DNA from: Bacillota bacterium
GTDB taxonomy: Bacteria; Bacillota; UBA994; UBA5500
Assembly (NCBI GenBank): GCA_041686915.1
Contig: JAWLDB010000002.1
Coordinates: 1 to 63,365, forward strand
Length of the DNA: 63,365 nt
Direction: 5' to 3'
Shown: in pieces, positions 4,971 to 29,858 of the stretch
How positions within the stretch are numbered: position 1 is the first letter of the stretch
Layout of the letters: every line of letters starts with the position of its first letter
Notes under the pieces: model-generated
What the model saw: the letters and a program-made list of their open reading frames with translations, nothing else
The model's database searches: none
Told to the model about the DNA's origin: nothing
Made by a program: the position numbers and the translations under genes

Positions 4971-5001
4971 TGAGACAGATGGGACTGTCCCATCTGTCTC
5001 A
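4971..5001. repeat. 31-nt perfect palindrome (15-bp arms)
   Basis: TGAGACAGATGGGAC-T-GTCCCATCTGTCTCA. It contains the stop codon of the minus-strand gene 4999..5895. Confidence 0.9.
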
Positions 5002-16355: not shown

Positions 16356-17807
16356 TTATTTGGCGCGGCTGCGGCGCCGTTCCCAATAGCGCTTAGCAAT
16401 TGCAGCATCTGAGAACGGGATGGAGGTCTTGCCAATTTTCAAGGTATCCTCGTGTCCTTTACCCAGCACTAGCACCACGTCCTCCGGACCCGCCATGCCT
16501 ATGGCAGCCTCAATCGCTTTTTCACGGTCCAACTGCACAAGGTGCGGCTTATAGATACCACGCAGCGTCTCACGAGCTATGACCTCAGGGTCTTCGTCTT
16601 CAGGATTATCGTTGCTCAAAATCACGTACTCGCTGTAGCGACTGGCAATTTCACCCATAAGCGGGCGCTTCTCGCGGTCACGGTTACCGGTACAGCCAAA
16701 AAGTGTGATCACTTGACCCTTGGCGATGCGGCGGGCATGCTGCAACACTTGCTCCATGCCATCCGGTGTATGCGCGTAATCAACGATGACGGTGGGGGCC
16801 GTTCCGACTACTTCCCACCGCCCCTTCGGCAAGGTTAGATGAGGAATGCCTCTTAGGAAGTGGAAGGGGTCTTGCCCGATGCAGATGATACCGCCGAGAG
16901 CAGATAATAGATTATAGAGGTTATGCAGACCAGCCAAAGGTGTTGTTACCTGGGCGGTGCGGCCATCTATATCCAGCTCGAAGCTGAACCCATCGTGGTT
17001 AATCATGATATTGCGCGCCTGAATGCGAGCACGGCGCATAGTACTGATTGTCAGGGCACCCTCGAACTCGTCAGCCAAGCGGGCACCGTATGGGTCATCG
17101 ATATTGATCACCGCCTGCTTGTGTGGCATCAGAAACAGCTTGCGCTTGGCCTGAAAATACGCCTCAAAAGTCTTATGATAATCCAGATGATCCTGGGTCA
17201 GGTTGGTGAAGATCACACCGGCAAAATCCATTCCACGCGCCCGGTCCTGCTCCAGAGAGATGGAAGAGATCTCAACACCCACCACCTTAGCATTCTGCTG
17301 GTGCAGATTCGCTAAGATGCGTGCCATTTCCAGCGCATCGGGGGTCGTGTTTACAGTCTCTTCAAGTTTCTGATCTTCGGGAAAGAACACACCAAGTGTA
17401 CCGATGGTAGCAGTAGGCACGCCACCATGGTTAAGCAGGCTGGCGATCAGATGGCAGGTCGTAGATTTGCCGTTGGTCCCTGTTATCCCGAGTTGTCGCA
17501 ACTGCTTGCTATAGTCTCCGTAAAACGCATACGCCAAGTCGGCCAAAGCCTGATTGCTGCTCTCCACCTGAATGTAGTTGGCGTATGGCAGGTCACGCTC
17601 ACCTACTATCCAGGCAGCTCCATTGGCCAATACCTGGGCAGCAAAATTGTGCCCATCAACGCGCTCGCCTACTTTGCAGACGAAGACGCATCCGGGCCTG
17701 ACCTGGCGCGAATCATGGTATATACCTTGTACTTTTATGGCACCAGTCTTGATGTCTTCAATCAACCGATTAAACTCCAACTTACAGCCCCTCCCAAGGA
17801 ACCCCAT
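16356..17807 (-). CDS. murE: Mur ligase, MurE-like (UDP-MurNAc-L-Ala-D-Glu : diamino acid ligase paralog)
   Basis: Motifs align colinearly with MurE: GITGTNGKSTT P-loop, GCTGNRDREKRPLMG, NDNPEDEDP, GKGHED. The start is ambiguous between TTG/ATG at 17810/17807 and a TTG at 17780 behind GGGAGGGG. Confidence 0.85.
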   Translation of the reverse strand: MGFLGRGCKLEFNRLIEDIKTGAIKVQGIYHDSRQVRPGCVFVCKVGERVDGHNFAAQVLANGAAWIVGERDLPYANYIQVESSNQALADLAYAFYGDYSKQLRQLGITGTNGKSTTCHLIASLLNHGGVPTATIGTLGVFFPEDQKLEETVNTTPDALEMARILANLHQQNAKVVGVEISSISLEQDRARGMDFAGVIFTNLTQDHLDYHKTFEAYFQAKRKLFLMPHKQAVINIDDPYGARLADEFEGALTISTMRRARIQARNIMINHDGFSFELDIDGRTAQVTTPLAGLHNLYNLLSALGGIICIGQDPFHFLRGIPHLTLPKGRWEVVGTAPTVIVDYAHTPDGMEQVLQHARRIAKGQVITLFGCTGNRDREKRPLMGEIASRYSEYVILSNDNPEDEDPEVIARETLRGIYKPHLVQLDREKAIEAAIGMAGPEDVVLVLGKGHEDTLKIGKTSIPFSDAAIAKRYWERRRSRAK

Positions 17808-17816
17808 CAACTTCCG

Positions 17817-18905
17817 TTATTTCTCAGAATCCTCTTCTGTTGTTTCTTTATGTTTGCGACCACGTAGGAATGCACTGAAGCGTCTCCACAGCTTTAGAGC
17901 CCATGGAGAGAAATTGCGCCACAGCCAGAACGGGAACCTCCGGATTGGCAGCTCATATTCACCCACAAACTCAATCAACTCACCGCCAAAGCTCTTCTTG
18001 AACTGATATAACCCATGAAGTGGTGACTCTTCTGAGTAGTCTACCGGCACACCGAAGAAGTCGAATACTTCAGCTCCGCGCGATTTGGCCCAAAGCATGC
18101 GGCGCCAGTTAAGGCCGTAATAGCCACGCAGATTAGCGAACTCGCGCACCATTCCACCGTAGACAGCCCAGCCGATTTTCCCGGTAACAACGGTCACGCC
18201 GGCGGCGACTACTTGTCCCTCGTGAAGCGCCAACATCAATGAAGCCTGATCTCCCATGGAATCAAGCAATCGCTCGTAGTACTCCGGGCCGCGCTCGAGG
18301 AATTTCTTACGGCGACTGGTATCTCGTAATGCTTCCATCAAGAGCGGAATATCCTCTTTAGTGCCAAGCCTGAAATCCACACCGTTCTTCTCTGGGTAAC
18401 GAATGCTGTAGCGGGTCTTCTTGGGCATCGTCGCCAACAGTTCTTCCTCATCAGCAGAAATGTCGAGACGAAAAGTTAGGCGCGGCTGCGTTCCCCCAAA
18501 GGGGTGATCCGAAACGACTCTCTCGAAACCGATTTCCTCCAGCGTTTTGGCCCGCTGTTTACTAGTCCAAGCCGGGTCAATCTTCAGTGCAAAGACCCCT
18601 TGCCTCCTCATTTCCTCCCGCAGTTGCTCCAGAAAGTGAGGGAGGTACTGTGCCGCATCATCAACCAACAATACTGGTCCGCGGGGCGCATAACCCAGGG
18701 ACCAAGGTAGCAAAGGCGGCTTGCGCAACCAGACTGTAACCGCTATCACCGGCCCACCACCCTGGTCATACGAGTAATGCACGGGCCTCCAGCTGACTGA
18801 CTTCAGCTTTGCCCAAACGGCAGTCTGCGCAAAGTCAGGTTCTGGTGAGCTTTGTATCAGTTTATCAAATTGGCCGGCGTCATCCGGACCTACTCTTCTC
18901 AGCAT
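17817..18905 (-). CDS. FemAB-family peptidyltransferase (aminoacyl-tRNA-dependent peptidoglycan branch formation)
   Basis: The length and sequence pattern (FAQTAVWAKLK..., two GNAT-like lobes, C-terminal helical region) fit the FemX/FemAB family. The second ATG has proper SD spacing after GGAGGA. Confidence 0.7.
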   Translation of the reverse strand: MLRRVGPDDAGQFDKLIQSSPEPDFAQTAVWAKLKSVSWRPVHYSYDQGGGPVIAVTVWLRKPPLLPWSLGYAPRGPVLLVDDAAQYLPHFLEQLREEMRRQGVFALKIDPAWTSKQRAKTLEEIGFERVVSDHPFGGTQPRLTFRLDISADEEELLATMPKKTRYSIRYPEKNGVDFRLGTKEDIPLLMEALRDTSRRKKFLERGPEYYERLLDSMGDQASLMLALHEGQVVAAGVTVVTGKIGWAVYGGMVREFANLRGYYGLNWRRMLWAKSRGAEVFDFFGVPVDYSEESPLHGLYQFKKSFGGELIEFVGEYELPIRRFPFWLWRNFSPWALKLWRRFSAFLRGRKHKETTEEDSEK

Positions 18906-18961
18906 CAGCATAGTCCTCCGTTCGCGGGCAACAGGTAATAGCCCGTCCGCCCCTTCCTCTA

Positions 18962-18990
18962 ATTATAGGATTGACAAAAATAGGCGTCAA
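18962..18990 (-). promoter_or_regulatory. Sigma-A-type promoter for the femAB-like/murE-like operon
   Basis: On the minus strand, TTGACG - 17 nt - TATAAT. Confidence 0.6.
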
Positions 18991-19099
18991 GTTAACTCCC
19001 TGGACAGTTCCTGACGCGAAAATTTGGTCTGACTAAGCAGGTTTTGACAAAACAATGCTGAAATTCTACTTTAGGCAATTCCACCAAGGAGGGATCTGA

Positions 19100-20746
19100 T
19101 TGGCTCGTAAAGTCGACGTCGTGTTCAACAAGTACTACCGCTATGACGAAATCACCGCTTATTTACAGGCAGTTGCTGCAGCTTATCCCGAGATCGCCAG
19201 GCTGGAGTCGGCTGGCAAGAGTTATGAGGGCCGCGACATTTGGGTAATGACCCTCACTAACCAGGCTACCGGCCCCGACCTCGAAAAGCCGGGCATATAT
19301 GTAGATGGCAACATTCATGCTGGCGAAGTGACTGCCGCCATGGTCTGTTTGTCTGCCATAGACTACCTGGTCTCCAACTATGGTGAGGATGAGGAAGTCA
19401 CTCATCTGCTGAACACTCGCTCCTTCTACATCCTTCCCCGCGTAAACCCGGACGGAGCCGAGAAGTATTTGACGACGCCGTTTATGCTGCGCAGCAGTGT
19501 AAAACCATATCCACATCCGTTTGAAGAGTTCGATGAAATGCCCGGATTACATCCTTACGATGTGGATGGCGACGGCTGGATATTGACGATGCGCGTGCGT
19601 GACGACAAGAAGGGTGAGTGGAAAGCATCGGACAAAGATGCCCGCCTGATGCTACCACGGCGACCAGGCGAACGCAAAGGTCCCTTCTATCGCATCTATA
19701 CTGAAGGTGTAATCAAGGAGTTTGAGGGAGAACCGTTTACAGTACATCGCAGCCCCTTTGGTCTGGACCTAAACCGCAACTTCCCACACAATTGGGACTT
19801 AACGGTAAACGGCGGCGGCGTATACCCGAGTTCTGAGCCGGAAGCAAAGACGATAATCGACTTCTTGCTAGCACACCGTAATGTCAGTTTGCTTAACGCC
19901 TTCCATACTTCAGGCGGGTTCTTCTTCCGCAATCCGTATCAGTATGGTGAGGACAAAATGGACCAGGATGACCTGAGGGCCACCAAGGAAATCGCCCTCG
20001 AAGGCACCTATGTCACCGGTTATCCGGATGTTAAGTCGAACAACAAAGCCACTCTCACCGAGTGGGCTTATGAGCAACATGGCATCATCGGCTATACCAC
20101 AGAGCTCTGGGACCGTATGAGCCGCGCAGGTATCGACCGCAACGATTACCTGAAGGCTGATACGCCCGAGAAGCGCGAAGCGCTGCAGCTCAAGCTGCTT
20201 GAGTGGAATGACCGGGAACTCATGGGTAAGGGCTTTTTTGACTGGCGCGCCTTTGAGCATCCCCAACTAGGCTGGGTGGAGATCGGTGGATGGAACCCGA
20301 AGTTTGTGTTGCAAAATCCACCGCCACAGCTACTGGAACCGGAATGTTACAAGAACACCCAGTGGGTATTGCGCCAAGCGTCCGCTTTGCCGCAAGTTGC
20401 CATCGATGACGTACAGGTTGAGCAGGTGGAAGCCGGTGTGTTTAAAGTTACTGCCACGTTTGAGAACCTGGGATACCTGCCTACCTATACCACCAACAAG
20501 GGCAAGCAGGCGGGTGCTATCAAGCAGGACCGCGCAAGACTAAGCGGCGAGTTTAACCTACTCGCTGGGAAGCCGGAGATGGAAATCGGTTATCTGGAAG
20601 GCTACATGAACGGCCACCATGGCAACCCAGCCAAGTCAACTGCGCGCGTAAGCTGGTTACTGCAAGCCAAGTCGGGCGCTGACGTCAGGATCGAGCTGAT
20701 TAGCCAGCGCGGTGGCGTTGCCCGCACCTCCGTCTGCCTGAACTAG
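19100..20746 (+). CDS. M14-family zinc carboxypeptidase, no signal peptide (paralog 1)
   Basis: Zn ligands and catalytic residues are in order: GNIHAGEV (HxxE), DLNRNF, AFHTSGG, YTTELWD. The TTG start lies 6 nt after GGAGGG. Confidence 0.85.
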   Translation: MARKVDVVFNKYYRYDEITAYLQAVAAAYPEIARLESAGKSYEGRDIWVMTLTNQATGPDLEKPGIYVDGNIHAGEVTAAMVCLSAIDYLVSNYGEDEEVTHLLNTRSFYILPRVNPDGAEKYLTTPFMLRSSVKPYPHPFEEFDEMPGLHPYDVDGDGWILTMRVRDDKKGEWKASDKDARLMLPRRPGERKGPFYRIYTEGVIKEFEGEPFTVHRSPFGLDLNRNFPHNWDLTVNGGGVYPSSEPEAKTIIDFLLAHRNVSLLNAFHTSGGFFFRNPYQYGEDKMDQDDLRATKEIALEGTYVTGYPDVKSNNKATLTEWAYEQHGIIGYTTELWDRMSRAGIDRNDYLKADTPEKREALQLKLLEWNDRELMGKGFFDWRAFEHPQLGWVEIGGWNPKFVLQNPPPQLLEPECYKNTQWVLRQASALPQVAIDDVQVEQVEAGVFKVTATFENLGYLPTYTTNKGKQAGAIKQDRARLSGEFNLLAGKPEMEIGYLEGYMNGHHGNPAKSTARVSWLLQAKSGADVRIELISQRGGVARTSVCLN

Positions 20747-20751
20747 CAGCA

Positions 20752-21258
20752 ATGGCCATCAAACCTATTCGCCAGCTAGGCGACCCGGTATTACGGCAGG
20801 TTTCTCAACCAGTAGTGCAGTTTGAAACGAATGAACTCAGACAGCTGGTGGACGACCTGCGAGATACACTCCACTCCTTCCAAGCCAAACATGGCACAGG
20901 TCGCGGCATCGCAGCACCACAGATTGGCGTGCCACTAAGAGTGGTTTATCTGGAGTTTGCGGGAACACCGCATACGCTGATCAACCCTAGTTTCACTCAG
21001 CTAAGTGAAACCCTGTTCTCGGTTTGGGACTCCTGCTTCAGTTACTTCTGCATAGCCTTTGAGGTTATCCGGCATAGACACGTAACACTGAAGTACTATG
21101 ATATCTCCGGACGGGAGCATATCCTGGAAGCCTCCGACGACCTGGCTGAGCTGCTGCAGCATGAACTTGAACACCTGGATGGTATATTGGCCATCGATCA
21201 ACTGGTGCCTGCGGGGAAAATCATGGAGCAGTACGAGTTCCTCAAAGGTAATAAGTAA
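20752..21258 (+). CDS. def: Peptide deformylase-like metallohydrolase
   Basis: Motif 1 GIAAPQIG and motif 3 QHELEHLDG are canonical. Motif 2 is WDSCFS instead of EGCLS (the Cys is kept). The start lies 5 nt after the M14 stop. Confidence 0.75.
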   Translation: MAIKPIRQLGDPVLRQVSQPVVQFETNELRQLVDDLRDTLHSFQAKHGTGRGIAAPQIGVPLRVVYLEFAGTPHTLINPSFTQLSETLFSVWDSCFSYFCIAFEVIRHRHVTLKYYDISGREHILEASDDLAELLQHELEHLDGILAIDQLVPAGKIMEQYEFLKGNK

Positions 21259-21306
21259 CCACGCACCTCCCAACCGGCATAATCTGCTGGGAAGGAGGTG
21301 TTTTTT

Positions 21307-21981
21307 GTGCAACGAGATCCACGAGTACCCAAGTCTTGTCCTGGTGGGTTCCTGGGTCATTACCGGGTTGTCACGGGAGATACCATGTTTAACATTGCCC
21401 AGTTCTTCAGAGTTAGACCGATCACCCTGATCATGGCCAATCCACACATCGAGAACCCGGATGTGATCTATCCAGGAGACATCCTTTGCATTCCGGGGCT
21501 TGTCCCCTACCCCTGCTGTTTAGTGCTTCAACCGCGGGAGGAGGTACCCACTGGGACTAGCGCATCCGCGCTGCTGCACGTCGAGTTCCGGGGAGGTCAG
21601 GCTGTTTCAGTTGTGGCGGCGCTCCCCCCACCTGAGACTTGGGGTGAGTTTGACCTATACCTGGCAGAGGTACTAATCAACCCAGAGGTTGGCGGTTTTG
21701 GCAATCAGTTATTCCCCACACCGGAAGATCCACCGACTTGGTCGACCACCATCAACTTGCCAACGGTTGTAGAGGTTGCACCGGAAAGCTTCGTCGTGCT
21801 TCGTCCGGCCAACTCTGAGTCAGGAATCTCTGGTCCGGCCATTCTCCAGGGCAGCATGCGTGACTGCTTCGATAGTGCCACCTGCGCCGATAGTAGAGAA
21901 GAACAACTAGCGACAAAGGCAAGGACTGGGATTCGGCGTAGACTGCGCAGGCGACGTCGAAACCGTAAGCCCCGTAGATAG
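21307..21981 (+). CDS. LysM-domain protein with unknown middle domain and poly-Arg C-terminus
   Basis: LysM signature YRVVTGDTMFNIAQFF...NPDVIYPGDILCIPG. No signal peptide. The tail is RTGIRRRLRRRRRNRKPRR. The GTG at 21307 lies 8 nt after GGAGG. Confidence 0.75.
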   Translation: MQRDPRVPKSCPGGFLGHYRVVTGDTMFNIAQFFRVRPITLIMANPHIENPDVIYPGDILCIPGLVPYPCCLVLQPREEVPTGTSASALLHVEFRGGQAVSVVAALPPPETWGEFDLYLAEVLINPEVGGFGNQLFPTPEDPPTWSTTINLPTVVEVAPESFVVLRPANSESGISGPAILQGSMRDCFDSATCADSREEQLATKARTGIRRRLRRRRRNRKPRR

Positions 21982-22059
21982 CATAAAAGGTGCAGTCTGC
22001 AGGAATGTCTCATCTCTCCCGCCAATACACATACTGGCATTTGATCGGAGGGATAGAGC

Positions 22060-23712
22060 ATGAGCAAAGCGCTAGTCTCCTTTAACCACTATTGGCTGTA
22101 TGACGAGTTAGAGAGCTATTTGCACAGCATCTCCAGCGATTACCCGCGATTAGTCGACCTGCAGTCGGTTGGAACGAGCTATGAGGGACGCGACATCTGG
22201 GCAGTAACACTTACCGATACGGAGACAGGAGAGCATCATGAGAAAGCGGCCATCTACATTGATGGCAGCATCCATGCTGTTGAGGTTGCAGCCAGTATGA
22301 TCTGTCTTTACCTGATTGACTACCTGCTGAGCAGTTACGGCCTGGACGATGACGTAACCCACCTACTGAAAACCCGTACCTTCTACATACTACCCCGGGT
22401 TAACCCTGACGGTACAGAGAAGTACCTAACAACGCCATACATACTGCGCAGCAGTGTTCGGCCTTGGCCAAAGTCCATGAATGAGCATGCCAGTCTGTCT
22501 GGTCTCCATCCTGAGGACCTCAACGGCGACGGATATATTCTGAACATGCGGCAACGCGACGATAAGGTTGGCGAGTGGAAACTCTCCAGTCGCGACCCAC
22601 GCATCATGGTTCCCCGCAGGCCGGGAGACAGGTTTGGACCGTTTTACCGTATGTTCTCCTGGAGTGAGGGCTTGGTGCGCGATTATGAGGGCTGGCCCTT
22701 CGAGATTCACCATTCGCCTTGGGGAGTTGACCTAAACCGCAACTTCCCGCAGAGCTGGGACCCGAAACTTCTTGGTGCCGCAGATTACCCGGGTTCAGAG
22801 CCTGAGAGCCGGGCTGTGATGGACTTCATTCTCACCCACCGCAATATCAATTTGCTGAACGCCATTCATACCGCGGGCGGGCTGTTTTTCCGCAATCCCT
22901 ATCAGTATCAAGATGACAGGATGAACCCCGATGACTTGCGCTTCACCCGTGAAATAGCCTATGAAGGTACTGCATTAACCGGCTACCCGGATGTGAAATC
23001 AAACGGACGCGCTACCCTACCCGAATGGGCCTACGAACAGCTTGGGATTATTGGCTACACAACCGAAGCATGGGACAGACTGGGGCAAGCTGGCCTGCCC
23101 TACGATGCCTTCAGCAGGGCGAATACTTCTGCTGATCGGGAGCAGCTGCAGCTCCGACTGCTGCAATGGAATGACCGGGAGCTCATGGGCAAAGGTTTCT
23201 TCAACTGGAAGCCGTTTGATCATCCGCAGCTTGGGACAGTGGAGATTGGGGGCTGGAACCCGAAGTTCAACATGGCTAACCCGCCACCACAACTGCTGGC
23301 TGCCGAATGCCATAAAGTAAGCAAGTGGGCTGTCAGACAAGCTTCCGCCCTGCCGGAGGTTTCGCTAGGGGGCATGTTGGTAGAGCAAATCAGCGATGAC
23401 ACATGGAAGCTCGTGGCCACCTTTGAAAACGGTGGCTATCTCCCCACCTGCACGAGCAATAAAGCACGGGAGGTGCAGGCAGTCAGGCAGGACATTGTAT
23501 CACTGTCTGGCCCTGTGACTATTCTATCGGGCACACAGGTGCAGGATGCAGGATTTCTCGAAGGCTACGGACAGGGCCATGGGGGTCGGCCGGCACAATC
23601 TGCCGCACGGGTATGTTGGCTGCTGCGCGGTGAGGCAGGAACAGAGGTACAGGTTACCTATCAGAGCCAGCGTGGTGGCTTAGTCAGGGCTAACGTTAGA
23701 TTGGACAACTGA
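22060..23712 (+). CDS. M14-family zinc carboxypeptidase, no signal peptide (paralog 2)
   Basis: GSIHAVEV, DLNRNF, AIHTAGG and YTTEAWD are present. It is colinear with 19100..20746 over the full length, including the C-terminal extension (ELMGKGFF.W..F.HPQLG.VEIGGWNPKF). Confidence 0.85.
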   Translation: MSKALVSFNHYWLYDELESYLHSISSDYPRLVDLQSVGTSYEGRDIWAVTLTDTETGEHHEKAAIYIDGSIHAVEVAASMICLYLIDYLLSSYGLDDDVTHLLKTRTFYILPRVNPDGTEKYLTTPYILRSSVRPWPKSMNEHASLSGLHPEDLNGDGYILNMRQRDDKVGEWKLSSRDPRIMVPRRPGDRFGPFYRMFSWSEGLVRDYEGWPFEIHHSPWGVDLNRNFPQSWDPKLLGAADYPGSEPESRAVMDFILTHRNINLLNAIHTAGGLFFRNPYQYQDDRMNPDDLRFTREIAYEGTALTGYPDVKSNGRATLPEWAYEQLGIIGYTTEAWDRLGQAGLPYDAFSRANTSADREQLQLRLLQWNDRELMGKGFFNWKPFDHPQLGTVEIGGWNPKFNMANPPPQLLAAECHKVSKWAVRQASALPEVSLGGMLVEQISDDTWKLVATFENGGYLPTCTSNKAREVQAVRQDIVSLSGPVTILSGTQVQDAGFLEGYGQGHGGRPAQSAARVCWLLRGEAGTEVQVTYQSQRGGLVRANVRLDN

Positions 23713-23755
23713 ACGCATGCAGACAGGGGAGGCTGTATTAGCCTCCCCTGACCAC

Positions 23756-24907
23756 TTACGTTTGCGATTTCCTTTTCTTCCTGAACAGGTACCAAGTGTA
23801 GTCCATAATACACGAGTATAACTTGGGAACTTGCTCCTGCCTCTCACCTGGCAAGAGCACTTTTGCAGGCTTAGCATTAGCTTCCAGCATCCATAGTCGT
23901 AGGTCTCGGTCGTAAGCTAGGTCAACGCCAACCTCCCCCATGGTACCAAATGCTTTGTCTATGTGACGACAAATGATGTCCGCTACAAAATGGGCTTGTT
24001 TCTTCAACCACAGCGCCTTGGTAACAGAACCCGTAATCTGTTTCAGCGCATCGTACAACTCAAAATGCTCAGCACCCAGATGAAAATTAGTGGCAAACTG
24101 GCCTGACTGGCCAACTCGCATACGCGAAGATACTGGCACCCATCTGCCTGACTCATCTTTACCCATGTAGATCCTGATGTCACAGTTTCTACCTTCCATC
24201 TGCATCAGCGGTATCCGCTGCTGTACTATACTCTCCTGCCTACTCGAATTCTTCCTGACCAGCTTGGCTACCTGCGAAAACCTTAGACTCGTACGACGTT
24301 TCCCGGTATCTGAGCTTTGCCATCCATAGCGACGCCGACGCATCAACCAGACTAGCGAAATGCTGTCTCCCCCACTTCCGCTCACAGGCTTCACTAACAC
24401 TGATTTGTGCCGCGACAGCATCGTGCGTAAGTCACTGGAATCCCGGTAGATGACAGTGGCAGGCAGATATTTGGCTGTATCCGGGTATGCACGTAAGCGC
24501 GAATGGCAGTTCCACTTACCCAAAATATTGGTGCTGTTGATTAGCTTGGCAGTGCTGCGCATTTTGCGCCGGACTTTTAATAGAGGCCGTCTTTTCCCAG
24601 GCGGGCAACGGTAAATCCGGTCATAGAGCACATCTGGCCACGGCACGCGTTTACGGTACCATCGACCGTCTGAGCCCAGTACCCAGCCGTAAATCCTTTT
24701 CGCCCCCGGCTCAACATCGTCAAGCCCAAAGTAGTACGCCAGGATGCCAGCCGCCTGGGCAGCTTGCATATTGAGTATTGCCTCTTCCACTCTCTCCTGA
24801 TGTGACAGTTTATGTATGAACGTGACGTGGGTGAAGATGGCAAGTACAGGTCTTGCCCTGCGCCGTCGACGTTTCTTGCTGTTCTTGCGCCTTGGCTTGT
24901 TAGGCAT
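23756..24907 (-). CDS. YheC/YheD-family ATP-grasp protein (paralog 1), Arg-rich N-terminus
   Basis: The pattern GILAYYFGLDDV...RVPWPDVLYDR...EVGVDLAYDRDLRLWMLEANAKP fits the YheC/D ATP-grasp family (E-x-N Mg site). The ATG at 24907 follows GAGAGGGGGTGA. The N-terminus is MPNKPRRKNSKKRRRRRARP. Confidence 0.75.
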   Translation of the reverse strand: MPNKPRRKNSKKRRRRRARPVLAIFTHVTFIHKLSHQERVEEAILNMQAAQAAGILAYYFGLDDVEPGAKRIYGWVLGSDGRWYRKRVPWPDVLYDRIYRCPPGKRRPLLKVRRKMRSTAKLINSTNILGKWNCHSRLRAYPDTAKYLPATVIYRDSSDLRTMLSRHKSVLVKPVSGSGGDSISLVWLMRRRRYGWQSSDTGKRRTSLRFSQVAKLVRKNSSRQESIVQQRIPLMQMEGRNCDIRIYMGKDESGRWVPVSSRMRVGQSGQFATNFHLGAEHFELYDALKQITGSVTKALWLKKQAHFVADIICRHIDKAFGTMGEVGVDLAYDRDLRLWMLEANAKPAKVLLPGERQEQVPKLYSCIMDYTWYLFRKKRKSQT

Positions 24908-24928
24908 CGACGCATCACCCCCTCTCTC

Positions 24929-24956
24929 TATGCTATGGAGTTGAGGCAATCTCTGT
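24929..24956 (-). promoter_or_regulatory. Sigma-K-like promoter candidate
   Basis: On the minus strand, AC - 17 nt - CATAGCATA (consensus AC-N16/17-CATANNNTA), 21 nt upstream of the start codon. Confidence 0.45.
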
Positions 24957-25008
24957 GAAAAGCAATCCCGGTCATCACTCAGCTTGAGTGGTGTTCTAAA
25001 CTGCCCGA

Positions 25009-25042
25009 TATGAAAGAGACCCTCTGACTTGAAATCAGAGGG
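25009..25042 (-). terminator. Rho-independent terminator after ATP-grasp paralog 2
   Basis: On the minus strand, CCCTCTGA-TTTCAAG-TCAGAGGG followed by TCTCTTTCAT. Confidence 0.7.
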
Positions 25043-25044
25043 CG

Positions 25045-26142
25045 TTAGTCTTTGTGGCGATATAGGTACTTCGCGTACTGCATTGTCCTGGTGAACTTCT
25101 CCGGCACATAACCTTTATCGGTGCTTTGGTCTTTGTCAGGCCTCGCATTGGCTTCGACTATCCATAGCCGAAAATCCCGATCGAACGCCAGGTCGAGACC
25201 AACCTCGCCCATGCGCCCAACCCCTGCCTCCAGACGCTGCACTACCAACTCCGCCGTCTCCTTGACCTGCTGCATCAATTCTTCCACCCGGAAAACGTCC
25301 TTAAGGATCTTTAACAACTCTTGGTCCAGGTCGGCTGCCTGAGCACCCTGGTGGGTATTTGAGACTATCGACCCAGGTTCGCCGATACGTAATCTGAAGG
25401 AGTAAGGAATCCATTTACCCTGCAGTTCTTTCTGCATCAGTACACGGATATCCGCCTTTCTCTTGCCAATGGTCAGTATAGGGATTTCCTGCTGAACAAC
25501 TGAGTGCCTGCCTGAGATACGGAGTACTTTCCTATATAGTCTGCGGAATGACAGTCCCAGGTGTGGAGTGTTGTTTCCGGACTGTTGAAGGGCGTAGCTC
25601 CTGCCTGCTCTCCATGCGCGACAAACTCCCCGCCCACGGCTCCCTGTATCCGACTTGATGAACACCGCTGGATGTTGTCTCAACATTAGCCGCAGCTGCT
25701 TTGGGCCTCGATGCCGGACGGTATGGGGTAGAAGATCTCGGGTATCCGAATATCGTGTGAGTACGACGTGGCAGCGCCACTTCGCAAGCATCACGTCTGT
25801 ATTTATGGAGATAGTACTGCTGCGCAGCAGTCTATAGACTACCCTCGCCCTACTAGCTGCAGGGGGACGGCGCTGCACATACAGCACGTCAGGCCAGGGA
25901 AGATCCTGCTCCACCCAACGTCCATCAACCCGCAGCCATCCACGAATACGGCGCTGAGGCCAGTTTACCCCACGCAGGCCGAAGTGGTAAGCTGTGACAC
26001 CTTCCTGCTTAGCCGCAGCCGCATACAGATTGGCCTTGTCCAATGGCCCCTGTTTGGGCAGTCCATCAAGATATGCGTCTACCACCAGGATGCCCAAAAC
26101 TGGTACCCGTTTCTGACTTCTTTCAGTTTGCTCATCGATCAT
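25045..26142 (-). CDS. YheC/YheD-family ATP-grasp protein (paralog 2)
   Basis: GVTAYHFGLRGV...DLPWPDVLYVQR...EVGLDLAFDRDFRLWIVEANARP. GGAGGTGA SD is present. Confidence 0.75.
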   Translation of the reverse strand: MIDEQTERSQKRVPVLGILVVDAYLDGLPKQGPLDKANLYAAAAKQEGVTAYHFGLRGVNWPQRRIRGWLRVDGRWVEQDLPWPDVLYVQRRPPAASRARVVYRLLRSSTISINTDVMLAKWRCHVVLTRYSDTRDLLPHTVRHRGPKQLRLMLRQHPAVFIKSDTGSRGRGVCRAWRAGRSYALQQSGNNTPHLGLSFRRLYRKVLRISGRHSVVQQEIPILTIGKRKADIRVLMQKELQGKWIPYSFRLRIGEPGSIVSNTHQGAQAADLDQELLKILKDVFRVEELMQQVKETAELVVQRLEAGVGRMGEVGLDLAFDRDFRLWIVEANARPDKDQSTDKGYVPEKFTRTMQYAKYLYRHKD

Positions 26143-26235: not shown

Positions 26236-28080
26236 CTATGGCCCGCCCTTAAACCTCTGCCTATGTAGTCCTAGTCCCATCAACCTGCCCATGTAGCTGC
26301 CGAACGAAATGTCCCTAAACCTAGACAACTGCTGATCACATCCGCACAAGTCCTGTTCAGCCATTGCCAGCCGTTCAAACTGCCTGGAAAGGGCTGCCTG
26401 AACCTTGCCAGTAGGCACCGCAAACTTTTCCTGCCGCTGCTTCAGCCAGCGCAGTGCCTTGTCCGTCTGGCCGCGTAATCTTTTGCTTGCTACGCTTCTG
26501 CGCTTTGCTGCGCGAGCCTCCTGGTCGGTAGCACTCTCATCCAACAACCGATACAGGCCCCCATATTTCCGTGTGATTAGAGTAGCTTCCCGGCCATATG
26601 CCAGAGAGGCCTGTGCCAGTTCCCTCACTTCGTTCAGGCGATAGTTTTGGCGACGCTCCTCTAGCTCTAGCAATGCTTCATCCAGCTCGCTATCAATGCT
26701 TTGCAGTGCCCGACGCTCCTGCTCTAGGGCGTTTTCGAACCGATCTTTGAAGAGAGACCTGTCAGCTTCTTCAGCACGCTTGTATCTGGCCCGCCGAGCC
26801 TCCAGGCGGTGCATACGCCAACCCTCTAGCCGCAATCTCCATCTGAGAGATTGCCTTTCCTGTTGGAGTAAACGTTTGTGGCGCACCACTGGCTGCATCT
26901 GGTATCTGCACCAGAGGCCAACCAAAGCCAGAAAGCTGCTTCCTCCTGCCAGGTATCCGGCCGTGGTGAGGACGAGAGTTCCCTGTACGGCTGAAGACGC
27001 AACTGCCGCGTTAAATAACAACCAAAGCCCAGCCAACAGGCGTTCTTTCAGCAATCCGCCCTGCCATCCGGATGGCTGTTCGGGGGTAAGGTGATCCAAC
27101 ACCCAACTTGGTCCAGCAAAGGCTGAATGGGTGGTCATTGCCTGCTCTCGCAGGTTTGTACGGGTCTTAAAGATGCGCATTCGTTGCCGACGCTTGGCCA
27201 ACCGCTCAACCTCTGCAGGCTCTGGCGCTGGCACCTTAGCAGGGTCAAGCTTGAGGAAGTCGCACAGGCCAGCCGCCAGTGCCGGTATGCTCTCCTTGCA
27301 TCCGGCGAGCAGCTTCCAGACTTCTGTTCGACCAGGTTGTTCCAGGTCGTCCTTGCGGAGCAAAAGGTGCTCATCACCGGAAAGCTGCCAGAGTGCAGGC
27401 TCGTAGCTAAAAGCAAGTAGAGATAGATAGACCAACCACCCTGAGAAATTGTCCAGCCAGGGGCCAAAGTGCTGGCTGTCTCGCAAAGGATGTTGGTAGT
27501 TGCGGTGACCCAACTCATTGCTGCCCACATTGTTCAGGGCAGGGACGTACATCCCATCATAGTCAATCAGAGAGAGCTTCCCCTCGTTCACCAGTACGTT
27601 TCCGTGCTGCAGATCTCCATGCGCTACTCCCTGTCGACGCAGGTCCTGCAACATCCTCAGCCAGTCGTCAGCCAACGTCTTGAGCTTCTCTGGTCGTGAA
27701 AGGTTTTGCTGGATATAGGTGTTTAGCGGTAGCCCGGGCACCCAGTCCATCTTTAGCACAGGGTACCAGCGGCCCTGCACTTTGATGCCTTGCTCCAGGT
27801 ATTGAAAACCCGCTGTATAGGGCAGGCCAACCGTGCTCAGGTGCTGGCTGATTGCTTCATAGCGCCGCTGTTGGTCCGCTACCTGGCGTAGAAAACAACG
27901 GACCGCCCAATCGCTTCCACCATAGGAAATGCGATAGACACTGGCAAAGCCTCCGGTTACCGCCCGTGGCAACCCAAGGGGGGTTAGTTCAGGGCGACCT
28001 CCTCTAAGCTCGGGCAAGCTAAAACAGAGGGCTGGGCCCTGTACCGCTTCGTTATAGTCTTGTGGAGTAGGCCAGGGCAT
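26236..28080 (-). CDS. Ser/Thr-kinase-fold protein with two TM helices and a long Arg/Glu-rich helical tail (YegI-like)
   Basis: G-loop TGGFASVY, catalytic loop HGDLQHGNVLV, IDYDG at the DFG position. Hydrophobic hairpin LLAGLWLLFNAAVASSAV / AGYLAGGSSFLALVGLWC. The ATG at 28080 lies 5 nt after GGGGGGA. Confidence 0.8.
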   Translation of the reverse strand: MPWPTPQDYNEAVQGPALCFSLPELRGGRPELTPLGLPRAVTGGFASVYRISYGGSDWAVRCFLRQVADQQRRYEAISQHLSTVGLPYTAGFQYLEQGIKVQGRWYPVLKMDWVPGLPLNTYIQQNLSRPEKLKTLADDWLRMLQDLRRQGVAHGDLQHGNVLVNEGKLSLIDYDGMYVPALNNVGSNELGHRNYQHPLRDSQHFGPWLDNFSGWLVYLSLLAFSYEPALWQLSGDEHLLLRKDDLEQPGRTEVWKLLAGCKESIPALAAGLCDFLKLDPAKVPAPEPAEVERLAKRRQRMRIFKTRTNLREQAMTTHSAFAGPSWVLDHLTPEQPSGWQGGLLKERLLAGLWLLFNAAVASSAVQGTLVLTTAGYLAGGSSFLALVGLWCRYQMQPVVRHKRLLQQERQSLRWRLRLEGWRMHRLEARRARYKRAEEADRSLFKDRFENALEQERRALQSIDSELDEALLELEERRQNYRLNEVRELAQASLAYGREATLITRKYGGLYRLLDESATDQEARAAKRRSVASKRLRGQTDKALRWLKQRQEKFAVPTGKVQAALSRQFERLAMAEQDLCGCDQQLSRFRDISFGSYMGRLMGLGLHRQRFKGGP

Positions 28081-28099
28081 AGTTGTCCCCCCATCACAC

Positions 28100-28843
28100 T
28101 CAAGCAAGCTCTACCCGTATTACCGTTACATCGTCGTTCCTGATCTTGCGCCGCGACCGCAAGTCCCCGACAAAAGCCTGGAAGGTACCAGCTGACAGCG
28201 CAGCATCAAGCAGTTCCCATGGCCGGCCACCTGCGCAAGCATCCTTCAGCATCCAGGCAGCAACAGCATCTGTTAACAGATAGAAACGGTCTCCCGCCAA
28301 CCACTCTCCGGATGTGCAAATGCGTCCATGCTTTGCCTTTTTAACCAGATCAGGTCGACTACCGATCAGTTGCGGATTACTGCCAAACTGTGCTGCATCA
28401 ACGACTGGAAAACTACCAGCCCACTCACCACCGCTCACCTGTACCAGTAGACAATCACCCACCACCATTGCATGCCAGCGACCTCGGCACACGCCTCTCT
28501 CCCTCAGGCGTAAGCCCAGTAGCGTAGCAAACGCACCCTGCGCCAGTTTCATCTCGGCGTACCAGGGAAGCTGGTCGGTATTCACGGTTTCCAGCCACCT
28601 CTGCTGTAGCTTGGGCAGGTATTGATCAATTCGCTTCTCGCTTAGCCAGCCTTTACACCAGGCGCGGGTCAGCATGCGAGCCCAGAGTCCGGAAAAGGAA
28701 GCCTCGGTTGCGCCATCAGCTATAGCAAAGCTAAAGGCATCAGCGGAGCAAACAACGTCTTGGATGGGCCAGAAGGCATCTTCATATTCGTCAGGCTCAC
28801 ATCCTGCCTTAGGCAACCAGGCAACTTGTGACTTGATCTGCAT
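28100..28843 (-). CDS. PP2C-like protein phosphatase
   Basis: FAIADGATEAS, LLTDAVAAW and NDDVTVIRV match the metal-binding Asp blocks of bacterial PP2C_2-type phosphatases. Confidence 0.7.
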   Translation of the reverse strand: MQIKSQVAWLPKAGCEPDEYEDAFWPIQDVVCSADAFSFAIADGATEASFSGLWARMLTRAWCKGWLSEKRIDQYLPKLQQRWLETVNTDQLPWYAEMKLAQGAFATLLGLRLRERGVCRGRWHAMVVGDCLLVQVSGGEWAGSFPVVDAAQFGSNPQLIGSRPDLVKKAKHGRICTSGEWLAGDRFYLLTDAVAAWMLKDACAGGRPWELLDAALSAGTFQAFVGDLRSRRKIRNDDVTVIRVELA

Positions 28844-28851
28844 GTATTGTC

Positions 28852-29694
28852 CTAGCGCAGATTGCTGTCAGCAACCCGGGTGCCGATATCCAGGAAGTTG
28901 ATTAAGGATACCATGTCGGCGTTGAACACAAATCCACGCGCGCCCTGAAGCACCCGTTTGCCATCCTGCTCGGCCATACCACGCATTTGGTCTGGCAGCT
29001 CACTGGACAGATTGAACAGTACCTTGGCATACTGGTCCGGCAGCTCATCCGGGCTGCTTGGGAACTCGACCGGGGTTGACGGGGTAGAAGAAATGTGAAT
29101 GTTAAATAACAGCACGGGGCCATCGCTGGACCGCATCTCTCGCAGGTTTTGGGCCGCCTGCTCTGGATTGCCGTCGGTTGACTCGCCATCCGTGATGTTG
29201 ATAACGATGGGCGGATAGCAGTCGGGGTGCTGCGTCAACCAGCCTTGCAGGATGCGTTCGACAGTTGAAAGTGCCTTGCACATAGGCGTGCCACCTTTGG
29301 CTACTGCATCAAACCAAACCGGGAATTTGATAGTCTGAGTGACTAGCCCGCCGGCGCCGTCATCAATCTTACGGGTACGTTCCTCAATGCGCGCAGGCGA
29401 GTTAGCGATCTCGCTGATTGGAACGAGTTCTCTGCCAGCAATGCTTCCAGCAAAGGCAGGACTGACTTTGCCACCATAGCCAATTATGCCAATGTGATAA
29501 TAGTCACGCACCCCTTCGGACTTGGCGCACTTCAATACGAGATTTTGCAGCAGTCGATTGATGACAGTAGCCAGGCTGTCTGCCTTCTTTCTCCTAGTTT
29601 CATCTGGTAGCTCGTCCTGCATCGAGCCTGACTGGTCCAGACAAAACAGAATACAGGATGGGTTGGTGCGGCTGATCTCAGCAGAATACGGCAT
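28852..29694 (-). CDS. von Willebrand factor A (vWA) domain protein, cytoplasmic (TerY/YegL-like)
   Basis: MIDAS start ILFCLDQSGSM, later ...GGTPM... and ITDGESTDG blocks. No signal peptide. Confidence 0.85.
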   Translation of the reverse strand: MPYSAEISRTNPSCILFCLDQSGSMQDELPDETRRKKADSLATVINRLLQNLVLKCAKSEGVRDYYHIGIIGYGGKVSPAFAGSIAGRELVPISEIANSPARIEERTRKIDDGAGGLVTQTIKFPVWFDAVAKGGTPMCKALSTVERILQGWLTQHPDCYPPIVINITDGESTDGNPEQAAQNLREMRSSDGPVLLFNIHISSTPSTPVEFPSSPDELPDQYAKVLFNLSSELPDQMRGMAEQDGKRVLQGARGFVFNADMVSLINFLDIGTRVADSNLR

Positions 29695-29811
29695 AACTTT
29701 ACCTCCTTAAGGTCTGGTCTATAGAATATAGCATGAAACTTTAAGAATATCACCCTTCGAATTCTTGTTCTCTATAAAGGTATAGTTTTCCTGCCTGTAC
29801 CAATATTCACT

Positions 29812-29858
29812 TTTGCACAAAACAAGAACCCTCCACAGGTGGTTCCTGCGGAGGGTTA
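29812..29858 (-). terminator. Rho-independent terminator after cysS
   Basis: On the minus strand, AACCCTCC-(15 nt)-GGAGGGTT followed by CTTGTTTTGTG. Confidence 0.7.

What the first reader, a model, noticed from the sequence alone, without database searches (positions are those of the whole stretch)
26236..29694. Cytoplasmic vWA - PP2C - Ser/Thr kinase triad (TerY-P / yegL-yegK-yegI type) of unknown function, here without ter genes
Three minus-strand genes are separated by 8 and 19 nt and start right after the cysS terminator. The first is a vWA protein with an intact MIDAS start (LDQSGSM) and no signal peptide. The second is a PP2C-like phosphatase (ADGATEAS, LLTDAV, NDDVTVIRV). The third is a ~614-aa kinase-fold protein (TGGFASVY, HGDLQHGNVLV, IDYDG). 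Its catalytic domain is followed by a two-helix membrane hairpin and a ~230-aa Arg/Glu/Gln-rich, probably coiled-coil, cytoplasmic tail. This three-gene architecture corresponds to the comparative-genomics 'TerY-phosphorylation triad' and to E. coli yegL-yegK-yegI, whose physiological role is still unresolved. Here it stands alone between a housekeeping aaRS gene and the sporulation-type ATP-grasp genes. A phospho-switch controlling a vWA interaction module, tethered to the membrane, is a plausible stress- or invasion-sensing device and a candidate conflict or defence system.
Basis: partly seen in the sequence, partly recalled or inferred. Interest (0 to 1): 0.7.

Follow-up and report, generated by a model that had tools for sequence, protein, structure and literature searches.

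The report
TerY-P defence triad, tip-less membrane kinase
This is a genuine three-gene vWA / PP2C phosphatase / Ser-Thr kinase operon of the TerY-P family, a kind already shown elsewhere to protect bacteria from phages; the only unusual point is that its membrane-anchored kinase has lost the DNA-binding tip that most relatives carry.

Summary
Three tightly packed minus-strand genes follow the cysS terminator: 28852-29694, 28100-28843 and 26236-28080. PADLOC's TerY-P models hit all three: TerY 2.6e-110, PP2C 7.9e-31, STK_OB 5.6e-75 (kinase domain only). AlphaFold2 plus Foldseek confirm a PPM/PP2C fold and a eukaryotic-like kinase fold. The MIDAS, phosphatase and kinase catalytic residues are intact and family-invariant. 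The same gene order recurs in 12 of 23 related loci from about nine phyla.

TerY-P is an experimentally validated anti-phage system (Gao 2020; a P. aeruginosa variant), although its mechanism is unsolved. E. coli yegL-yegK-yegI is only an architectural analogue: the E. coli proteins do not hit the TerY-P models.

The kinase tail is a two-helix membrane hairpin followed by a roughly 95-residue antiparallel coiled-coil stalk. Relatives, and YegI, carry an (HhH)2 module at the stalk tip (profile vs YegI E 3.6e-13). The window protein has cleanly lost it (about 91 aa compared with a 63%-identical syntenic orthologue).

The triad is absent from a more distant relative, so it is accessory, but it is not in a defence island. 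Verdict: a variant of a known kind, of moderate to low interest.

The parts
29827..29857 (-). Intrinsic terminator of the upstream cysS gene (13-bp stem followed by a T-run). It marks the 5' boundary of the triad transcription unit.
29725..29753 (-). Promoter-like site (GTGATA, 17-nt spacer, TG-TATATT extended -10) about 30 nt upstream of the vWA start. An AAGGAGG ribosome-binding site lies at about 29700-29706.
   Evidence: This is a consensus match only; it is not proof of function.
28852..29694 (-). TerY-like cytoplasmic vWA protein, 280 aa. The MIDAS is complete: D20-x-S22-x-S24 (29623-29637), T136 (within GGTPM, 29281-29295) and D169 (within TDGES, 29179-29193).
   Evidence: PADLOC TerY 2.6e-110 over the full length. 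Pfam VWA 3.2e-6. The MIDAS residues are invariant in 15 triad-linked homologues from several phyla, whose alignment has 68% mean column identity. Identity to the syntenic orthologue is 87.5%, above CysS at 84.8%. No signal peptide.
28100..28843 (-). PPM/PP2C-fold Ser/Thr phosphatase, 247 aa. Metal-binding motifs: E21-D22, D43-G44 (ADGAT), G129-D130, D192 (TDA) and N236-D237-D238.
   Evidence: PADLOC PP2C 7.9e-31. Pfam PP2C_2 24.4 bits against a cutoff of 24. The listed residues are invariant in 60 homologues. AlphaFold2 pLDDT 94.3. Foldseek top hits are all PPM phosphatases: PBCP 6ae9 at 8.9e-10, then tPphA, RsbX, PppA and PstP.
27211..28080 (-). Eukaryotic-like (Hanks-type) kinase domain, residues 1 to about 290. 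Motifs: Gly-rich loop TGGFASVY (27934-27957); beta3 AVRCF with Arg61 at the usual Lys position (27892-27906); catalytic loop HGDLQHGN (27598-27621); DYDG in place of DFG (27553-27564).
   Evidence: PADLOC STK_OB 5.6e-75 over model positions 1-267 of 562. Pfam APH, Pkinase and RIO1 hits are weak. Foldseek gives more than 1300 PDB hits at E<=1e-3; the 50 best listed are all protein kinases, including Myt1 at 2.5e-8, JAK2, CaMKII and PknG. Among 120 family members, HGDLQHGN occurs in 114 and DYD in 116; the beta3 position is R in 84 and K in 19.
26896..27051 (-). Probable two-helix membrane hairpin, residues 344-395, with basic residues on both flanks, so both ends are predicted to be cytoplasmic.
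   Evidence: Hydropathy KD19 1.54-1.58, which is borderline. AlphaFold2 helices 344-365 and 371-395. A hydrophobic hairpin at the same position is found in 10 of the 11 triad-linked kinases whose C-terminal region could be examined. The analogous hairpin of E. coli YegI was shown experimentally to be two-pass with N-in and C-in topology (bioRxiv 10.1101/819920).
26323..26892 (-). Long antiparallel coiled-coil stalk (helices 397-491 and 496-586). The 4-residue turn at 26593-26610 (residues 491-496) is the site where relatives carry an (HhH)2 module; that module is deleted here.
   Evidence: AlphaFold2 pLDDT above 90 through the stalk. The alignment shows a gap of about 91-98 aa compared with P0002 and most family members. 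The family profile matches the E. coli YegI (HhH)2 region 483-614 with probability 97.9% and E 3.6e-13. Pfam HHH_5 hits are weak, below the gathering score, and occur in the relatives only.
26272..26304 (-). Conserved short C-terminal helix (FGSYMGRLMGL; family consensus F-x-x-Y-L-x-R). It brings the chain end back towards the membrane-proximal end of the stalk.
   Evidence: Its role is unknown.

Best explanation
The locus is a stand-alone TerY-P operon, a phospho-switch cassette of a family with demonstrated anti-phage activity.

Components:
- A soluble TerY-type vWA protein with a complete metal-ion-dependent adhesion site (MIDAS).
- A PP2C phosphatase.
- A Hanks-type Ser/Thr kinase held at the inner face of the membrane by a two-helix hairpin. 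It carries a long antiparallel coiled-coil stalk pointing into the cytoplasm.

Proposed mechanism (inferred):
1. In the resting cell the PP2C keeps the kinase and its targets dephosphorylated.
2. An infection-associated cue near the membrane promotes clustering or dimerisation of the kinase through its stalk.
3. The kinase autophosphorylates in trans and then phosphorylates TerY and/or other host or phage proteins.
4. The TerY MIDAS acts as the phospho- or acidic-ligand-binding adaptor that executes or relays the response.
5. The PP2C resets the switch.

In most relatives the stalk tip bears an (HhH)2 domain. This is a non-sequence-specific dsDNA-binding fold, so those versions plausibly sense DNA at the membrane, for example an entering phage genome. 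The window version has lost that tip, so it must be triggered differently or through TerY.

Shown here: gene order, folds, intact catalytic and MIDAS residues, family membership, co-conservation, accessory status and the domain loss.

Shown elsewhere for relatives or analogues: phage defence by TerY-P; YegI autophosphorylation and its reversal by PphC; the two-pass topology of YegI.

Inferred: every step of signal, substrate and effector in this organism.
For: Family membership:
- PADLOC TerY 2.6e-110, PP2C 7.9e-31, STK_OB 5.6e-75.

Folds:
- PP2C model pLDDT 94.3 with PPM-only Foldseek hits.
- Kinase model pLDDT 90.8 with protein kinases as the top Foldseek hits.

Intact active sites:
- MIDAS D20/S22/S24/T136/D169 invariant.
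- PP2C aspartates invariant.
- HGDLQHGN and DYDG near-invariant, and R/K interchange at the beta3 position.

Operon structure:
- Gaps of 8 and 19 nt, with an upstream terminator and promoter-like site.

Co-conservation:
- 12 of 23 kinase-related loci carry TerY-PP2C-STK in the same order. They come from Armatimonadota, Chloroflexia, Proteobacteria, Patescibacteria, Verrucomicrobia, Planctomycetes, Actinobacteria and KSB1.
- The triad also occurs on two cyanobacterial megaplasmids.

Accessory status:
- The triad is present in a syntenic relative (L025).
- It is absent between cysS and def/M14 in a more distant Bacillota MAG (L029).

Constraint:
- pN is 0.078 for TerY, 0.128 for the kinase domain, 0.273 for PP2C and 0.344 for the tail, against saturated pS of about 0.75.

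Literature:
- Defence against T7-like phages (PMC7699616; PMC11090510).
- P. aeruginosa variant active against Autographiviridae, with cells surviving (10.1101/2022.08.12.503731).
- YegI is a Mn2+-dependent, autophosphorylating, two-pass membrane kinase (10.1101/819920).
- PphC dephosphorylates YegI (10.1101/303594).
Against: - No experiment exists on this operon or on any member with this kinase tail.
- According to PMC11090510, the kinase of the tested Gao-type system carries a C-terminal OB fold. The window kinase matches only the first 267 of the 562 STK_OB model positions.
- The locus is not in a defence island: no other PADLOC system is convincing, and the neighbours are housekeeping or cell-wall-type genes.
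- There are no integrase genes or flanking repeats.
- No relatives were found in 2.9 million viral contigs.
- Loss of the (HhH)2 tip may mean partial loss of function.
- Arg at the beta3 Lys position is unusual for an active kinase.
- Hydrophobicity of the hairpin is borderline (KD19 about 1.55).
- dS is saturated, so dN/dS could not be properly estimated.
Confidence: 0.65

Rival explanations
1. It is a domesticated housekeeping or stress-signalling module rather than an immune system. A YegLKI-like phospho-switch would report on envelope, cell-wall or sporulation state, possibly acting with the adjacent YheC/D ATP-grasp and M14 carboxypeptidase genes.
For: - The chromosomal position is fixed between cysS and the YheC/D-M14 genes in two species with about 85% identical CysS.
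- TerY is more conserved (87.5%) than CysS.
- There is no defence island, mobile-element gene or flanking repeat.
- No terminator was detected between the kinase and the first YheC/D gene, a 93-nt gap.
- The presumed DNA-binding tip has been lost.
- A second tip-less triad (L026) also sits among ordinary genes.
Against: - None of the 12 other triad loci carries YheC/D, M14 or cysS nearby.
- The whole block is missing in the relative L029, so it is dispensable.
- The patchy distribution across about nine phyla and on megaplasmids is typical of horizontally moving accessory cassettes.
- All three proteins belong by sequence to the family with demonstrated defence activity.
Confidence: 0.17
2. 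It is a decaying remnant. The system has lost its sensor domain (the (HhH)2 tip) and is on the way to inactivation.
For: - About 91 aa are deleted at exactly the most conserved part of the tail.
- In the closest relative, P0002, the G-I-G hairpins of that module are already degenerate.
- The tail (47% identity) and the PP2C (62%) evolve much faster than their neighbours.
Against: - All three ORFs are intact, with good start contexts.
- Every catalytic and MIDAS residue is retained.
- The deletion is in frame and leaves a cleanly closed helical hairpin with pLDDT above 90.
- pN is far below pS in all parts.
- Tip-less kinases occur in at least one other intact triad of a distant lineage (L026, 37% identity), which suggests a viable architecture.
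Confidence: 0.08
3. The third protein is not a protein kinase. It would instead be a small-molecule phosphotransferase or another nucleotidyl-transferring enzyme on a kinase fold (APH, RIO or SelO-like chemistry).
For: - The best Pfam hit is APH (28.4 bits, above its cutoff), whereas Pkinase falls below its cutoff.
- The beta3 Lys is replaced by Arg in most family members.
- The alphaC Glu is not conserved; an invariant D69 is present instead.
- The family profile finds no PDB kinase at E<=1e-3 by sequence.
Against: - The APH hit covers only the catalytic-loop region 133-175.
- The 50 best-listed Foldseek hits are all protein kinases.
- The obligate pairing with a PP2C protein phosphatase argues for protein phosphorylation.
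- K and R interchange at the beta3 position within the family.
- YegI shares the unusual D-x-D motif in place of DFG (YegI DSD, here DYD; for YegI). It is an experimentally active protein kinase despite several non-canonical residues (10.1101/819920).
Confidence: 0.05

Closest known systems
TerY-P anti-phage system (Gao et al. 2020; PADLOC models TerY PDLC02224, PP2C PDLC02222, STK_OB PDLC02223)
   Same: - The three components are the same and adjacent on one strand.
- Sequence matches are strong for TerY (2.6e-110, full length), PP2C (7.9e-31, full length) and the kinase catalytic domain (5.6e-75).
- It stands alone, without ter genes.
   Different: - The kinase C-terminal half does not match the model; only positions 1-267 of 562 align.
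- Where PMC11090510 describes an OB fold, this kinase has a membrane hairpin plus a coiled-coil stalk.
- The host is an uncultured Bacillota bacterium.
- The locus is not in a defence island.
- Activity is untested.
E. coli YegL - PphC (YegK) - YegI
   Same: - The triad logic is the same: vWA, PP2C, kinase.
- The kinase architecture is the same: catalytic domain, two-pass membrane hairpin with both termini cytoplasmic, and a helical cytoplasmic tail.
- A D-x-D motif replaces DFG in both (DSD in YegI, DYD here).
- The (HhH)2 tip of YegI is homologous to that of the window kinase's relatives (hhalign probability 97.9%, E 3.6e-13).
   Different: - Pairwise similarity is at or below significance for all three proteins.
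- YegL and PphC hit no PADLOC model, and YegI hits no TerY-P model.
- The PP2C profile does not match PphC.
- YegI keeps the beta3 Lys (K39) but has VGDxxQxS in place of HGDxxxxN.
- The window kinase lacks the (HhH)2 module, which is the one clearly homologous tail element.
- The function of YegLKI is itself unknown.
TerY-P triads embedded in type II / III-A CoCoNuT (McrBC-related) systems, and the TerY-P triad as defined by Anantharaman, Iyer and Aravind 2012
   Same: A TerY-like vWA, a PP2C and an STK form a proposed phosphorylation-dependent switch (PMC11090510; PMC4978471).
   Different: - Those kinases carry a C-terminal zinc ribbon and sit beside helicase, nuclease or McrBC genes.
- Here there is no zinc ribbon (no CxxC pairs in the sequence) and there are no associated nuclease or helicase genes.
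Type VI secretion threonine-phosphorylation pathway (PpkA - PppA - Fha1); functional analogue only
   Same: - A membrane Hanks-type kinase is paired with a PP2C phosphatase as an on/off switch.
- PppA is among the Foldseek hits of the window PP2C model (6jkv, 7.8e-8).
- From general knowledge, not tested here: PpkA contains a vWA domain.
   Different: - There the vWA domain is part of the kinase and is periplasmic.
- The output is an FHA protein and T6SS assembly.
- No T6SS or FHA genes were seen in the annotated +/-10 kb around the triad.

Membership tests
TerY-P triad (sensu Anantharaman 2012 / Gao 2020 / PADLOC) | TerY-like vWA protein with an intact MIDAS (DxSxS...T...D) and no secretion signal | tested here: met
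   PADLOC TerY 2.6e-110, model positions 1-274 of 277. D20, S22, S24, T136 and D169 are invariant in 15 homologues. No hydrophobic N-terminus.
TerY-P triad (sensu Anantharaman 2012 / Gao 2020 / PADLOC) | PP2C/PPM phosphatase with metal-binding aspartates | tested here: met
   PADLOC PP2C 7.9e-31. AlphaFold2 pLDDT 94.3, with Foldseek hits to PPM phosphatases only. D22, D43, D130, D192 and D237/D238 are invariant.
TerY-P triad (sensu Anantharaman 2012 / Gao 2020 / PADLOC) | Ser/Thr kinase of the TerY-P kinase clade with catalytic-loop and metal-binding residues | tested here: met
   PADLOC STK_OB 5.6e-75 over the kinase domain. Kinase fold by Foldseek. HGDLQHGN and DYDG are present. Caveat: Arg, not Lys, at the beta3 position.
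TerY-P triad (sensu Anantharaman 2012 / Gao 2020 / PADLOC) | The three genes adjacent, co-directional and co-conserved | tested here: met
   Gaps of 8 and 19 nt. The same order occurs in 12 of 23 related loci, plus L025 and L026.
Gao-type tested TerY-P subtype (STK fused to an OB fold) | C-terminal OB-fold domain on the kinase | tested here: not met
   Only positions 1-267 of the 562-position STK_OB model align. The AlphaFold2 model of residues 340-614 is all-helical, with no beta barrel. The OB annotation itself is taken from PMC11090510; I could not read Gao et al. directly.
TerY-P triad (any subtype) | Confers phage resistance; depends on kinase, phosphatase and MIDAS residues | not testable with these tools
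   Requires expression and phage-challenge experiments.
E. coli YegL-PphC-YegI orthologous group | Detectable sequence homology of each of the three proteins to YegL, PphC and YegI | tested here: not met
   BLASTP best E-values: kinase 0.022, PP2C 2.4, and vWA 7e-05 over only 74 aa. The hhalign comparison of the PP2C profile with PphC gives probability 0.6%. YegL and PphC hit no PADLOC model, and YegI hits no TerY-P model.
YegI-type kinase architecture (kinase - 2TM hairpin - coiled coil - (HhH)2 - coiled coil) | Two-pass membrane hairpin after the kinase domain, with both termini cytoplasmic | tested here: inconclusive
   Predicted helices 344-365 and 371-395 have basic flanks, and the hairpin is conserved in 10 of 11 triad kinases whose C-terminal region could be examined. 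Hydropathy is borderline (1.54-1.58), and topology needs experiment.
YegI-type kinase architecture (kinase - 2TM hairpin - coiled coil - (HhH)2 - coiled coil) | (HhH)2 module at the tip of the coiled-coil stalk | tested here: not met
   The module is present in most relatives and homologous to that of YegI (weak Pfam HHH_5 hits). It is absent from the window protein: an alignment gap of about 91 aa and a 4-residue turn in the model.

The most novel reading that the evidence does not exclude
The kinase-2TM-coiled coil-(HhH)2 proteins of this TerY-P clade, and E. coli YegI, may act as inner-membrane 'DNA-at-the-gate' sensors. A DNA-binding tip, held on a stalk of roughly 95 residues per arm, would detect a phage genome while it is threaded through the membrane. 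That would fit the reported specificity of TerY-P for T7-like phages.

The window operon would then be a natural tip-deletion variant that is still under purifying selection. This would imply either that TerY, not the kinase tip, is the primary sensor, or that this lineage has re-purposed the switch for a non-DNA cue such as membrane or envelope perturbation.
Probability: 0.15. Interest if true: 0.6.

Novelty: new variant of a known kind. Interest (0 to 1): 0.35.

Why it matters
TerY-P is a validated anti-phage system whose trigger, substrates and effector step are unknown. No solved structure of a sequence-detectable relative of any component turned up.

This analysis contributes three points:
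1. The TerY-P sequence family includes a large clade in which the kinase is membrane-anchored and carries a long coiled-coil stalk tipped by an (HhH)2 module homologous to that of E. coli YegI. This links the orphan yegLKI genes to a defence family through one specific domain.
2. Tip-less variants occur naturally in otherwise intact operons. They are ready-made comparison material for testing whether DNA binding is the trigger.
3. TerY is the most strongly constrained component, more so than CysS between the two orthologous loci. That points to TerY as the functional core.

None of this changes the classification of the locus. It is a recognisable member or variant of a known system, so its value is as a lead for mechanism, not as a new kind of biology.

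Tried and rejected
- **Direct orthology to E. coli yegLKI.** Rejected. Only the (HhH)2 module of the wider family matches YegI.
- **Functional linkage to the neighbouring YheC/D ATP-grasp and M14 genes.** tblastn of those proteins against 23 related loci gave no hits, so linkage is not supported beyond the two syntenic species.
- **Defence-island context.** A PADLOC scan of the 55 other ORFs of the window gave only generic hits: class-V aminotransferases to SspA/DndA, plus single weak hits to Cas3, CasR, CARF and mad3 models. Rejected.
- **Mobile-element boundaries.** No meaningful direct or inverted repeats flank the triad, and G+C is not deviant.
- **Phage origin.** The viral-contig scan with the TerY alignment found no relatives.
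- **RNA elements.** Rfam and ARAGORN found nothing in the window.
- **Sequence search of the PDB.** Each protein and the kinase profile gave nothing useful. Folds were established by AlphaFold2 plus Foldseek instead.
- **dN/dS.** Synonymous sites are saturated (pS about 0.75), so only pN comparisons are reported.
- **Primary papers.** Gao et al. 2020 and Anantharaman et al. 2012 are not held in the library. Statements about them come from papers that cite them.
- **Contig look-ups.** Two look-ups (P0094, P0255) failed because the service was busy.

Full report
**1. Observation.**
The three minus-strand ORFs exist exactly as described:
- a 280-aa vWA protein (28852-29694);
- a 247-aa PP2C-like protein (28100-28843);
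- a kinase-fold protein (26236-28080), 614 aa from the ATG.

Homologues begin MPWPTPQDY, so the ATG is the true start. It lies 19 nt after the PP2C stop and is preceded by a G-rich Shine-Dalgarno sequence. The vWA stop and the PP2C start are 8 nt apart.

Upstream of the vWA start lie three signals:
- the cysS terminator (13-bp stem, 29857-29827);
- a promoter-like site with an extended -10 (29753-29725);
- an AAGGAGG ribosome-binding site.

No terminator-like site was found in the 93 nt between the kinase stop and the next gene.

**2. What the proteins are.**
Pfam gives only borderline hits: VWA 3.2e-6, PP2C_2 24.4 bits against a cutoff of 24, and APH or Pkinase for the third protein. PADLOC's models of the TerY-P defence system hit decisively:
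- TerY 2.6e-110 over the full length;
- PP2C 7.9e-31 over the full length;
- STK_OB 5.6e-75, but only over model positions 1-267 of 562.

NCBIfam has nothing specific. No solved structure is detectable by sequence, so I predicted structures from alignments of database homologues.

The middle protein folds with pLDDT 94.3. Its Foldseek hits are all PPM/PP2C phosphatases: PBCP at 8.9e-10, then tPphA, RsbX, PppA, PstP and SpoIIE. The third protein folds with pLDDT 90.8. It gives more than 1300 PDB matches at E<=1e-3, and the 50 best listed are all protein kinases.

Active-site residues are intact and conserved:
- TerY MIDAS residues D20, S22, S24, T136 and D169 are invariant in 15 triad-linked homologues.
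- PP2C residues D22, D43-G44, G129-D130, D192 and N236-D237-D238 are invariant in 60 homologues.
- The kinase motif HGDLQHGN occurs in 114 of 120 relatives, and D-Y-D in 116 of 120.

One oddity: the beta3 'VAIK' lysine is an arginine (R61). Across the family the position is R in 84 members and K in 19. This suggests that Arg is tolerated there, not that it marks a dead enzyme.

**3. The kinase tail.**
The model shows these elements in order:
- the catalytic domain (residues 1 to about 285);
- a low-confidence linker (307-332);
- two hydrophobic helices (344-365, 371-395) with basic flanks on both sides;
- an antiparallel helical hairpin of about 95 residues per arm (397-491, 496-586);
- a short conserved C-terminal helix.

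Hydropathy of the hairpin is borderline (KD19 1.54-1.58). A hairpin at this position recurs in 10 of the 11 triad-linked relatives whose C-terminal region could be examined.

Most family members carry a module at the tip of the stalk with two helix-hairpin-helix motifs. Their consensus is IPGIGxxLKxRLxxxGIxTAADI ... VxGIGxxKAxALxxWR, with weak Pfam HHH_5 hits, below the gathering score. The window protein lacks this module entirely; in the alignment a gap of about 91-98 aa falls at the turn.

Its closest relative, P0002 (63% identical overall, 705 aa), retains the module with degenerate G-I-G hairpins. A profile of the family matches E. coli YegI at exactly this module (YegI 483-614, probability 97.9%, E 3.6e-13). 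Tip-less kinases also occur in another intact triad from a distant lineage (L026).

**4. Relatives and context.**
A genome scan gave 23 loci with kinase relatives. Twelve have TerY-PP2C-STK in the same tight order. They come from Armatimonadota, Chloroflexia, Proteobacteria, Patescibacteria, Verrucomicrobia, Planctomycetes, Actinobacteria and KSB1. Two cyanobacterial megaplasmids also carry the triad.

Other relatives are tandem kinases without TerY or PP2C. The TerY family has about 894 representatives (50% identity clusters) at E<=1e-30. None of the related loci has YheC/D, M14 or cysS nearby.

The window comes from an uncultured Bacillota bacterium; the best named CysS hits are 'Bacillota bacterium' MAGs at 72-73% identity. 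A related metagenomic contig (L025) is syntenic: cysS-TerY-PP2C-STK-YheCD-M14-def. Identities to the window proteins are:

| Protein or region | Identity |
|---|---|
| CysS | 84.8% |
| TerY | 87.5% |
| PP2C | 61.9% |
| Kinase domain | 77% |
| Kinase tail | 47% |

In a more distant MAG (L029, CysS 73% identical), cysS is followed directly by def and M14, with no triad. The cassette is therefore accessory. The rest of the window has no convincing defence system, and the flanks are housekeeping or cell-wall-type genes. No flanking repeats, Rfam RNA families or tRNAs were found. No relatives were found in viral contigs. Synonymous sites are saturated, but pN is far below pS in every part.

**5. 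Comparison with what is known.**
TerY-P was defined by comparative genomics (Anantharaman et al. 2012, cited in PMC11090510 and PMC4978471). Gao et al. 2020 then showed that it is a stand-alone anti-phage system active against T7-like phages (PMC7699616; PMC11090510). A P. aeruginosa variant protects against Autographiviridae, with most cells surviving (10.1101/2022.08.12.503731). I found no paper on its mechanism.

Kinase C-terminal fusions described so far are an OB fold (the tested systems) and a zinc ribbon (CoCoNuT-embedded triads) (PMC11090510). E. coli YegI is an active, Mn2+-preferring, autophosphorylating, two-pass membrane kinase (10.1101/819920). PphC dephosphorylates it (10.1101/303594). 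Its biological role is unknown.

By sequence the window triad belongs to the Gao/PADLOC family and not to the yegLKI group. By kinase architecture it resembles YegI, minus the one tail module that is demonstrably homologous.

**6. Mechanism.**
The best-supported reading is a kinase/phosphatase switch acting with, or on, a MIDAS-bearing adaptor.
- The membrane-tethered kinase is activated by trans-autophosphorylation on clustering, by analogy with YegI's second-order kinetics (10.1101/819920).
- The PP2C resets the switch.
- TerY is the most constrained component. It binds an acidic or phosphorylated ligand through its MIDAS and relays or executes the response.
- In tip-bearing relatives the (HhH)2 module is expected to bind dsDNA near the membrane. 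This follows from established knowledge of the HhH fold.
- The window variant lacks the module and must respond to another cue.

All steps beyond fold, residues, family membership and context are inference.

**7. Verdict.**
It is a variant of a known kind: a TerY-P triad with a membrane-anchored, coiled-coil, tip-less kinase. Interest is moderate to low (0.35).

Noticed in passing
window 16356-26142: A cluster of peptide-ligase and carboxypeptidase-type genes lies next to the triad:
- Mur ligase (16356-17810);
- FemAB (17817-18911);
- two M14 carboxypeptidases (19100-20746 and 22060-23712);
- def;
- a LysM protein (21298-21981);
- two tandem YheC/D ATP-grasp genes (23756-24949 and 25045-26142), only 37% alike by proxy. 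The first has a polybasic N-terminus (PNKPRRKNSKKRRRRRARP).

Gene content varies among relatives: L025 has one YheC/D gene and L029 has none.
   Followed up: partly
window 27892-27906 (kinase residues 59-63) and homologues P0002-P0120: The kinase family has Arg at the beta3 'VAIK' lysine position in 84 of 120 members and Lys in 19. An invariant Asp (D69) is present where the alphaC Glu is not conserved. This is unusual for presumably active Hanks-type kinases.
   Followed up: partly
L001 (E. coli K-12 yegI, residues 483-614) vs alignment A2: The C-terminal (HhH)2 module of E. coli YegI is homologous to the stalk-tip module of the TerY-P-clade membrane kinases (hhalign E 3.6e-13), although the rest of YegI/PphC/YegL is not detectably related. 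YegI and this family also share a D-x-D motif in place of DFG.
   Followed up: partly
L009, L010, L011, L013 (Obscuribacterales and other MAGs); P0003, P0016: Close relatives of the kinase domain occur as tandem-kinase proteins (two catalytic domains, no membrane hairpin). Some loci hold several copies, and none of these has TerY or PP2C nearby. They account for 60 of the top 120 hits.
   Followed up: no
whole window 1-63365: Rfam found no RNA family at gathering score, and ARAGORN found no tRNA. The window carries three aminoacyl-tRNA synthetase genes (cysS, a class Ic gene and a Glu/Gln-type gene). In Bacillota such genes often have T-box leaders, from general knowledge.
   Followed up: no
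window 23712-23762: A 23-nt inverted repeat (78% complementary, 5-nt loop) lies between the convergent M14 and YheC/D genes. It is probably a bidirectional terminator.
   Followed up: no
L026 (ENA ERZ27247713 k141_50371) 2036-5531: A second, independent tip-less TerY-P triad (kinase 618 aa, 37% identical to the window kinase) sits next to YlbF, ArsP and flavodoxin-type genes. As in the window, it is not in a defence island.
   Followed up: partly
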